NCBI RefSeq assembly: GCF_036588685.1
Contig: NC_086380.1
Location: 30,504,001-30,568,000, forward strand
Reading direction: 5' to 3'
Source: Mytilus trossulus
Lineage: Eukaryota
DNA: 64,000 nt
Within the stretch, counting starts at the first letter, position 1, and each line of letters starts with the position of its first letter. The notes below the pieces were generated by a model, which worked only from the letters and a program-made list of their open reading frames with translations, had not been told where the DNA came from and did not search any database. This document shows, one piece after another, positions 31,821-32,900 of this stretch. The translations under genes were made by a program, and so were the position numbers.

Positions 31821-32900
31821 TCAGTGATTGTCCTGCATTATATTAGTTTTAGATTTCTTCAGACTAATTCCTTTGTTCTTTAGAACAATCCTTAGTTGGA
31901 ATTTAGGTTTCTTTTTCATTGGTTCGTTAAAGTCATTTTCAAGTTCAAAATTATCATTCATGTCTGATTTAAGTTTCGGCTTTGTGCTTTTCTTTGTTCT
32001 GAGCGTTTCCATTTGTTTAATAGCATTGTTGATCATCTGTAGAAATATTTGGTCATGTTTTGCTGGACTAGTCTGTTCAAGTAGTGTCTGTGTTTCGTCT
32101 TGTTCAAGCAATGCAAGTTTTGTGGATAATGACTGATGTGTGGATATCATTTTAAATTTCAATGGTTGCTTGTGAAATGATCCCAATATTAAAATCTGTG
32201 AATCTCCCTGATAATCATCGGTAACAGGTTCACTATACTTTGAAAAAAATGCTTTACTTACAGTAACATTTTTAAAATCTTTATCAGTAACCACCGTCTC
32301 GTGCATGACTTTGACCTTCTTACAAAACCTTTTTAGAATGTATTGACCAGGCTCTATTTTGTCGATTAGAATACATATAACCTTGTTTGACTTTAACAGG
32401 ACATAGGCAGGTTGATTTCGCTCAGATTCAAGTGAACTCTTCGGATCATTAAAATGTGTTGGCATATTTTCTGGTAATAATCGTTGATCACTGCCATCAG
32501 TCATTAAGATTTGAATATCAGTCACCGTGGACGATGTTTTATTGGAACTTCCAGTAAGAACAGTAAGTCCTTGGCAGTATCTTACAACAGATGGATAAAA
32601 ATTTCTTAGATCAAGGAACTGATTTGGAGTGCTGGTTGTGCTTGTATCTGAATCTGAAGGTTCTGTACTGACATTGTTAAACATGCCATCTTCAGATAGT
32701 TCGGTTGATAAAGAGATGACTGATGTCTGGCTGTTTGTTTGGGATATAGAGGTTGTAGATAAAGAAATAACAGACTTTTGACTATCAGTGTATTCAGTCG
32801 AAGTGCATAACTCATGAGACTGTGATGATTCTACTGACTGTACGGATGGTGTCTGGTTTTGAGACATTATCTTTTCTGTTGGGTTCCCTGTTCCACTCAT
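31821..32900 (-). CDS. Uncharacterised protein 'ORF-X' (about 359 aa): Ser/Thr/Gln-rich N-terminus, hydrophobic beta-rich middle, Lys-rich C-terminus with NLS-like KKKPKF
   Basis: Long open frame in AT-rich DNA. The first ATG (MSGTGNPTEK) at 32900 is conserved in the paralogous copy. A conserved candidate splice acceptor (tttattttcag on the minus strand) lies about 130 nt upstream in both copies. Confidence 0.7.
   Translation of the reverse strand: MSGTGNPTEKIMSQNQTPSVQSVESSQSHELCTSTEYTDSQKSVISLSTTSISQTNSQTSVISLSTELSEDGMFNNVSTEPSDSDTSTTSTPNQFLDLRNFYPSVVRYCQGLTVLTGSSNKTSSTVTDIQILMTDGSDQRLLPENMPTHFNDPKSSLESERNQPAYVLLKSNKVICILIDKIEPGQYILKRFCKKVKVMHETVVTDKDFKNVTVSKAFFSKYSEPVTDDYQGDSQILILGSFHKQPLKFKMISTHQSLSTKLALLEQDETQTLLEQTSPAKHDQIFLQMINNAIKQMETLRTKKSTKPKLKSDMNDNFELENDFNEPMKKKPKFQLRIVLKNKGISLKKSKTNIMQDNH

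What the first reader, a model, noticed from the sequence alone, without database searches (positions are those of the whole stretch)
31821..32900. ORF-X: protein I cannot assign to any family, with a disordered S/T-rich head, a folded-looking core and a basic tail
Seen: about 100 aa of S/T/Q/E low complexity, then a segment with alternating hydrophobic strands (AYVLLKSNKVICILIDKIEPGQYILKRF...QILILGSF), then a Lys-rich tail with KKKPKF. There is no signal peptide or TM. The two copies look better conserved in the ORF than in the flanks, with a frame-preserving 6-nt indel (ESSQSH vs ESSH). Inference: a nuclear or cytosolic protein under selection, possibly lineage-specific.
Basis: partly seen in the sequence, partly recalled or inferred. 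Interest (0 to 1): 0.7.

Follow-up and report, generated by a model that had tools for sequence, protein, structure and literature searches.

The report
Mussel orphan gene among Toll receptors
A conserved mussel gene with no match to any known protein family sits between Toll-like receptor genes, and likely encodes a nuclear adaptor whose invariant tail motif would dock onto chromatin-reader proteins.

Summary
The 359-aa ORF is real. It lies on the minus strand in a Mytilus cluster of four TLR genes and was duplicated with them. Homologues exist in three named Mytilus species (72-89% identity) and one unnamed lineage (44-49%); nothing more distant was found. dN/dS between the two window copies is 0.35 (95% bootstrap 0.21-0.61).

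Two corrections. The second copy is frameshifted in this assembly. The ORF-versus-flank contrast is probably inflated by gene conversion: dS is 0.13, against 0.35-0.75 for the co-duplicated TLRs.

No family or fold could be assigned (AlphaFold pLDDT 31-37). New features: an SQ cluster in the head, and a seven-residue motif, FQLRIVL, invariant across both lineages inside the basic tail. It matches six of seven positions of the published Taf14 ET-domain-binding consensus. A polyadenylation signal 2.3 kb downstream is conserved in both copies.

Best guess: a nuclear adaptor docking on BET/YEATS ET domains (0.3). A diverged OB-fold genome-maintenance protein is the main rival (0.22). It is not TPP1, RPA1, RMI1 or TDRD3. 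Orphan genes are common in mussels, so interest is modest.

The parts
31821..32900 (-). ORF-X copy B, intact single coding exon, 359 aa
32625..32900 (-). S/T-rich low-complexity head (aa 1-92) with 5 SQ motifs (aa 13, 26, 40, 53, 57); a second ATG at 32867 (Met12) is shared by more homologues than Met1
32136..32624 (-). Conserved, probably beta-rich core (aa 93-255), fold unassigned
   Evidence: 44-51% identity per block to the second lineage; strands in low-confidence models
32001..32135 (-). Conserved, predicted helical segment (aa 256-300)
   Evidence: 24 of 45 residues identical to the second lineage; helix 188-207 of the model
31902..32000 (-). Basic tail with NLS-like lysine clusters, ending in KKKPK
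   Evidence: function inferred
31881..31901 (-). Invariant motif FQLRIVL (aa 334-340), candidate ET-domain docking strand
   Evidence: longest invariant run in the family; compared with published consensus
32901..33029 (-). 5' UTR part of the coding exon; in other Mytilus paralogues this stretch is predicted as 32 extra N-terminal codons
33030..33031 (-). Splice-acceptor-like AG (TTTTCAG), present in both copies; junction not seen directly
33714..33719 (-). Donor-like GTAAGT of a possible upstream non-coding exon; present in copy B only
31623..31858 (.). 124-bp tandem repeat (1.9 copies; 2.9 in copy A) that overlaps the stop codon and supplies the variable last residues
29463..31820 (-). Probable long 3' UTR; the last 240 nt are 88% identical between the copies
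29475..29480 (-). AATAAA, conserved in copy A (13978-13983); similarity between the copies ends about 20 nt after it
15725..16800 (-). ORF-X copy A, 1-nt deletion near 16508 in an A6T4 run; null allele or assembly error
9262..11397 (+). TLR gene 1 (LRR + TIR)
19338..21476 (+). TLR gene 2, head-to-head with copy A
25875..28043 (+). TLR gene 3, with an in-frame stop at 27417-27419
36330..38633 (+). TLR gene 4, head-to-head with copy B

Best explanation
ORF-X is a conserved, mussel-restricted gene under purifying selection that was duplicated together with its TLR neighbours, and it likely encodes a nuclear adaptor whose invariant FQLRIVL motif would dock as a beta-strand on the ET domain of a BET or YEATS chromatin reader. 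Shown: open frame, selection, family range, co-duplication, motif invariance, SQ cluster by definition. Inferred: nuclear import through the lysine clusters; phosphorylation of the SQ-rich head by ATM/ATR-type kinases; a folded beta-rich core that binds another partner; ET docking. Estimated odds by step: real protein-coding gene 0.9, nuclear 0.65, ET-type docking 0.3.
For: dN/dS 0.35, CI 0.21-0.61, 356 of 360 codons. Homologues in M. galloprovincialis, M. edulis and M. coruscus and in an unnamed lineage at 44-49%. FQLRIVL is in 28 of 39 sequences held; it is the longest invariant run (7) in a 7-sequence alignment, reached by 0 of 20000 column shuffles of the tail and 1.7% of shuffles of residues 93-359. 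It fits 6 of 7 positions of the Taf14 ET consensus (PMC7442819, passages), and LRIVLK resembles BRD9's ET-binding LKLVLKV (PMC6375729, passages); the relaxed patterns occur in 4.4% and 1.4% of tail shuffles. Lysine clusters flank it in both lineages. The head meets the definition of 3 S/T-Q in 50 residues (PMC3564818, passages) in X, and 9 of 9 heads tested carry 3-6 S/T-Q. The genome encodes an ET domain and an AHD domain.
Against: The motif fails the strict Taf14, BRD9-like and NSD3-like patterns; the patterns it fits were relaxed after seeing it, and the relaxed Taf14 pattern occurs in 19% of whole-protein shuffles. The 28 sequences are redundant: two lineages in effect (tree). S/T-Q enrichment in X's head is not significant given its composition (P 0.20; P 0.002 and 0.07 in the second lineage). 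No location, phosphorylation or expression of the protein was measured. The core has no confident structure (pLDDT 31 and 37).
Confidence: 0.3

Rival explanations
1. A fast-evolving genome-maintenance protein with an RPA70N/RMI1/TPP1-type OB fold, whose orthologues outside mussels are too diverged to detect; the SQ head would be its ATM/ATR switch.
For: By-eye likeness (family pattern recalled, then seen in the mussel's own exons): conserved Q110, M-T-[DE]-G and P-G placed as in RMI1/TDRD3; SQ cluster; strand-rich models. The family evolves fast, so failure to detect distant kin is plausible.
Against: No statistical support: profile scores against mussel TDRD3, RMI1 and RPA70N were reached by 924, 1375 and 233 of 2000 shuffles, hhalign by 55 and 40 of 150; global Z at most 1.4 in 12 pairs. 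The test is weak, since RMI1 vs RPA70N also failed (Z 0.8). It is not one of the named members: RPA1, RMI1 and TDRD3 have their own loci, and M. galloprovincialis TPP1 is listed as VDI41153, not VDI40581 (PMC8653790 supplement rows).
Confidence: 0.22
2. A co-regulated partner of the TLR pathway, kept head-to-head with a TLR and sharing its promoter region. This is not exclusive of the best explanation.
For: Both copies are head-to-head with a TLR, start codons 2.5 and 3.6 kb apart. Accession pairs VDI40579/VDI40581 and CAC5393362/CAC5393364 each share a contig length and skip one number, which suggests one gene in between in two other species; that gene was not identified.
Against: The duplicated unit spans TLR ends, ORF-X and spacers, so hitch-hiking explains the layout. 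No TIR, death or LRR domain. The one kappa-B-like site between the genes (34661) lies in a high-copy repeat, and 21 of 100 shuffles give as many sites. Context in the second lineage is unknown.
Confidence: 0.15
3. A domesticated accessory gene of a transposon or virus.
For: Single coding exon and narrow range; viral proteins use ET-binding motifs (PMC6375729 passages).
Against: Only 2 copies found in the 1.3-Gb genome; the duplication boundaries include TLR sequence, not element ends; no transposase or viral gene beside it in 184 kb (the LINE at 46-50 kb is separate); conserved polyadenylation signal.
Confidence: 0.1
4. A decaying or non-functional ORF whose apparent conservation comes from gene conversion.
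For: Copy A is frameshifted, and several paralogues are truncated or split (P0005, P0026/P0027, P0028, P0036). dS 0.13 against 0.35-0.75 for TLR pairs.
Against: Conversion does not lower dN/dS, which is 0.35; full-length frames exist in three named species and in the 44-49% lineage.
Confidence: 0.04

Closest known systems
ET-binding short linear motifs (Taf14 partners; BRD9 LKLVLKV; NSD3 IKLKI)
   Same: Alternating hydrophobic residues with a basic residue, in a basic low-complexity tail; 6 of 7 positions of the Taf14 consensus.
   Different: Valine where the consensus has a second basic residue; last position of the BRD9-like motif not met; binding unmeasured.
S/T-Q cluster domain proteins (ATM/ATR substrates)
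   Same: At least 3 S/T-Q in 50 residues in the head, in both lineages.
   Different: Partly expected from composition in Mytilus; no link to DNA damage shown.
RPA70N / RMI1 / TDRD3 / TPP1 OB folds
   Same: A few short pattern elements by eye.
   Different: No significant score; those genes exist separately; S/T-rich region precedes the core, whereas TPP1's linker follows its OB fold (PMC8653790 section 10).
Taxonomically restricted, tandemly duplicated Mytilus genes (PMC7653742, PMC10279657)
   Same: Narrow range, tandem copies with broken paralogues, position in a TLR cluster.
   Different: Not secreted and not cysteine-rich like the described immune effectors; presence-absence variation not tested.
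Database entries VDI40581.1, XP_071179811.1 ('serine-rich adhesin for platelets-like'), CAC5400567.1 and others
   Same: Same family, 72-89% identity.
   Different: Uncharacterised; the adhesin name likely reflects only the serine-rich head (inference: no signal peptide or TM).

Membership tests
ET-binding motif (YEATS type, Taf14 consensus) | Phi-x-Phi-+-Phi-+-Phi | tested here: not met
   Strict pattern absent in 4 of 4 sequences; 6 of 7 positions fit
ET-binding motif (BET type) | BRD9-like or NSD3-like pattern of PMC6375729 at the conserved site | tested here: not met
   Neither pattern matches at 334-340; LRIVLK is similar to BRD9's first six residues
ET-binding motif (either type) | Conserved motif in a low-complexity, basic region | tested here: met
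ET-binding motif (either type) | Measured binding to an ET domain | not testable with these tools
   needs ITC or pull-down
S/T-Q cluster domain | At least 3 S/T-Q within 50 residues | tested here: met
   SQ at 13, 26, 40, 53, 57
S/T-Q cluster domain | Excess over composition | tested here: inconclusive
   P 0.10-0.25 in 6 Mytilus heads; 0.002, 0.002 and 0.07 in 3 of the second lineage
S/T-Q cluster domain | Phosphorylation by ATM/ATR | not testable with these tools
   bench assay
OB fold (RPA70N/RMI1/TPP1 type) | Five-stranded barrel | tested here: inconclusive
   models too poor
OB fold (RPA70N/RMI1/TPP1 type) | Significant sequence or profile similarity | tested here: inconclusive
   no signal, but one positive control also failed
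TPP1/ACD | Being the species' TPP1 orthologue, with N-terminal OB then linker | tested here: not met
   published M. galloprovincialis TPP1 is VDI41153; architecture differs
Transposon or viral accessory gene | Dispersed copies, terminal repeats, linked transposase or viral genes | tested here: not met
   2 tandem copies, duplicated with TLR sequence
Taxonomically restricted gene | No detectable homologue outside the clade | tested here: met
   no profile search of the full representative library was run, and the second lineage is unnamed

The most novel reading that the evidence does not exclude
A mussel-specific nuclear adaptor with a new beta-rich fold, kept head-to-head with TLR genes through tandem duplications, that links ATM/ATR-type stress phosphorylation to BET/YEATS chromatin readers and so tunes TLR-driven transcription: a lineage-specific nuclear arm of bivalve innate immunity.
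Probability: 0.07. Interest if true: 0.65.

Novelty: new member of a known kind. Interest (0 to 1): 0.3.

Why it matters
Mussels carry many taxonomically restricted genes of unknown function (PMC7653742, passages) and many tandemly duplicated TLRs (PMC10279657, passages), so one more orphan is not surprising. This one has handles that most orphans lack: measured purifying selection, a distant second lineage, one invariant seven-residue motif and an SQ cluster. That makes a cheap peptide-binding test possible. If the motif binds an ET domain and the gene is co-regulated with its TLRs, it would be a lineage-specific nuclear regulator of mussel immunity. If the core is an OB fold, it would be a hidden genome-maintenance factor.

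Tried and rejected
Family scans: Pfam gave 0 families for ORF-X and only sub-threshold, inconsistent hits across 19 members; PHROGs nothing under E 0.06; PDB sequences best E 0.25 and 0.35. AlphaFold2 with 8 and 19 rows: pLDDT 31 and 37. Fold searches on the second model were uninformative: best Z 3.0 in 48161 chains, no viral match at E 0.001; this excludes no fold. ESM Atlas: best feature score 0.81, TM at most 0.29, and no usable hit for P0011; a blank shows nothing. Longer proteins of 693-2000 aa: none among 7989 candidates, weak evidence. Related loci: none in metagenome contigs (593 pattern matches) or viral contigs (50), so no genomic context for the second lineage. Complex prediction of the tail (41 aa) with the mussel AHD domain: no verdict, score 0.17 against a mark of 0.34, controls not folded, alignment not used; the BET ET domain was not tried because it is split over two exons. 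Sequencing runs: no RNA holder listed on record. In the one lay obtained depth was near zero in 33274-33614 and over TLR4 and low in 33615-34296; contigs show presence, not absence, no DNA control run was laid, and no joint at 33030 was among the 15 rows shown (68 more not shown). The splice junction and copy A's frameshift therefore remain unchecked against reads. A Pfam TPP1 search of the genome gave one hit at E 2.8 that looks spurious. No PP1-type RVxF motif. Rfam: nothing at gathering score in 29000-36400. Earlier scan findings: none. Literature: 0 papers for six accessions and 0 for the motif; nothing relevant in the listings. Supplements were not searched except for PMC8653790, so expression tables may list this gene under a gene ID.

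Full report
Verdict. ORF-X is a real, selected, narrowly distributed mussel gene inside a TLR cluster. No family or fold could be assigned. The most specific lead is an invariant tail motif that resembles ET-domain docking motifs. The mechanism is inferred, not shown.

Setting. The window is G000:C8:30504001-30568000 of a 1.3-Gb genome; its closest homologues are named Mytilus proteins. It holds four plus-strand TLR genes, one with an in-frame stop. ORF-X lies on the minus strand between TLR3 and TLR4, and a second copy between TLR1 and TLR2. Similarity between the two units covers TLR ends, spacers and ORF-X, so they arose by tandem duplication of a block of about 16 kb. In 184 kb around the window there are no further copies of either gene, and genome searches with ORF-X and with a distant homologue found only these two copies (12 of 12 candidates scored each).

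Observation. The ORF, its three compositional parts, the quoted peptides, the lack of a TM, the 6-nt indel and the acceptor are all confirmed. The finding omits a 1-nt deletion in copy A near 16508, in an A6T4 run. The close relatives P0001 and P0006 are in frame through this site, so it is a private null allele or an assembly error.

Selection. Over 356 of 360 codons, dS is 0.126 and dN 0.044: ratio 0.35, bootstrap 0.21-0.61, 0 of 2000 at or above 1. The four TLRs give 0.26-0.31. But the co-duplicated TLR pairs have dS 0.35 and 0.75, and the identity plateau of 0.92-0.98 extends from about 32100 to 33100, some 200 nt into non-coding DNA. Gene conversion between the copies is the likely reason (inference). 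It inflates the ORF/flank contrast but not dN/dS.

Range. Homologues were found in M. galloprovincialis, M. edulis and M. coruscus at 72-89%. phmmer of the core against 1.84 billion representatives gave 4 hits: one M. coruscus protein and three from an unnamed lineage at 44-52%, held in JGI, ENA and Logan records. That lineage is probably another mussel (inference; not identified). The tree of 14 rows splits the two lineages at 100/100 and groups both window copies with P0001/6/7 at 98/98. Several Mytilus paralogues are truncated or split, a birth-and-death pattern. The first ATG is a GTG-type or other codon in M. coruscus and in a third paralogue type, which are predicted to start 32 codons earlier; Met12 is kept in 8 of the 9 homologues listed, so the start is uncertain.

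Transcript. An AATAAA at 29480 is conserved in copy A, and similarity between the copies stops about 20 nt later; the last 240 nt are 88% identical and found nowhere else in the genome. In one lay of 4 runs from 3 studies, none on record as RNA, contigs covered most of 29463-33021; one began at 29463, 12 nt past the AATAAA, and two ended at 33009 and 33021, just short of the acceptor. This is a weak hint of a spliced, polyadenylated mRNA with a 2.3-kb 3' UTR, not proof: no DNA control was laid. The same lay shows contigs identical to copy B over 325 nt and others 28-29 letters different, so more than one type is present in those runs.

Anatomy. Identity to the second lineage is 26-30% in the head, 51% in 93-141, 42-44% in 163-255, 53% in 256-300 and 56% in 330-345. 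FQLRIVL (334-340) is the longest invariant run: 7 columns, reached by 0 of 20000 shuffles of the tail and 1.7% of shuffles of 93-359. It is in 28 of 39 sequences held; of the 11 without, 7 end or diverge before it and 4 fragments of 37-84 aa were not inspected. It fits 6 of 7 positions of the Taf14 ET consensus (PMC7442819, passages) and resembles BRD9's LKLVLKV (PMC6375729, passages), but fails the strict patterns. The head has 5 SQ motifs, meeting the definition in PMC3564818 (passages); the excess over composition is significant in 2 of 9 heads. Lysine clusters lie on both sides of the motif in both lineages.

Core fold. Two AlphaFold runs failed (pLDDT 31 and 37). I recalled a likeness to RPA70N/RMI1/TPP1 OB folds and tested it against the mussel's own TDRD3, RMI1 and RPA1 exons. 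Scores were within shuffle range, though one of three positive controls also failed, so the test is inconclusive. ORF-X is not those genes, and the published M. galloprovincialis TPP1 has another accession (PMC8653790: passages, section 10 and supplement rows).

Mechanism. I commit to a nuclear adaptor: basic clusters for import, a phosphorylatable disordered head, a folded core with an unknown partner, and a tail strand docking on an ET-type domain (0.3). Both ET-type readers are encoded in the genome. The rivals are a diverged OB-fold genome-maintenance factor (0.22), a TLR-pathway partner (0.15), a domesticated mobile gene (0.1) and a dying ORF (0.04). The head-to-head layout with TLRs is explained by block duplication and does not by itself show shared function.

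Novelty. The protein is in databases as uncharacterised, or under a name likely drawn from its serine-rich head. I found no paper naming six of its accessions or the motif; supplements and subscription journals were not covered. Restricted gene families of unknown function are common in mussels (PMC7653742, passages), and tandem TLR duplication is described (PMC10279657, passages). Interest 0.3.

Noticed in passing
window 27417-27419: TLR3 has an in-frame stop after the ectodomain, before the TM and TIR parts; pseudogene, secreted ectodomain allele or assembly error.
   Followed up: partly
window 46159-49689 (+): LINE-type element with endonuclease and reverse transcriptase frames separated by one stop; another RT-like element at about 66990-70550 (-), beyond the window.
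   Followed up: partly
window 54010-58542: About 4.5-kb element with long inverted arms (276 nt, 94%) built of 21-bp repeats; looks like a foldback or non-autonomous DNA transposon.
   Followed up: no
window 36104-36147 (-): Type I hammerhead-like match (E 0.029, below gathering score) in a high-depth repeat just upstream of TLR4.
   Followed up: no
window 30920-31081: Palindromic 160-nt element inside the probable 3' UTR of copy B, absent from the alignment with copy A; likely a MITE.
   Followed up: no
window 34201-34400: Non-coding block between ORF-X and TLR4 better kept between the copies (0.80-0.82) than its neighbour 34001-34200 (0.59-0.62); possible promoter element.
   Followed up: no
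L008:5250-5726 (+), about 25 kb left of the window: Exon similar to E3 ligase BRE1B (E 0.003); a synteny anchor for the cluster.
   Followed up: partly
L014:2565-4307 (+): 581-aa B-box/NHL frame right of the window.
   Followed up: no
L027 (G000:C4:65730025-65733204): The ENL/AF9-type AHD domain ends a 988-codon open frame.
   Followed up: partly
L023 and L024 (G000:C14 and C26): The same TDRD3-like exon match on two contigs with equal score; possible duplicated haplotig.
   Followed up: no
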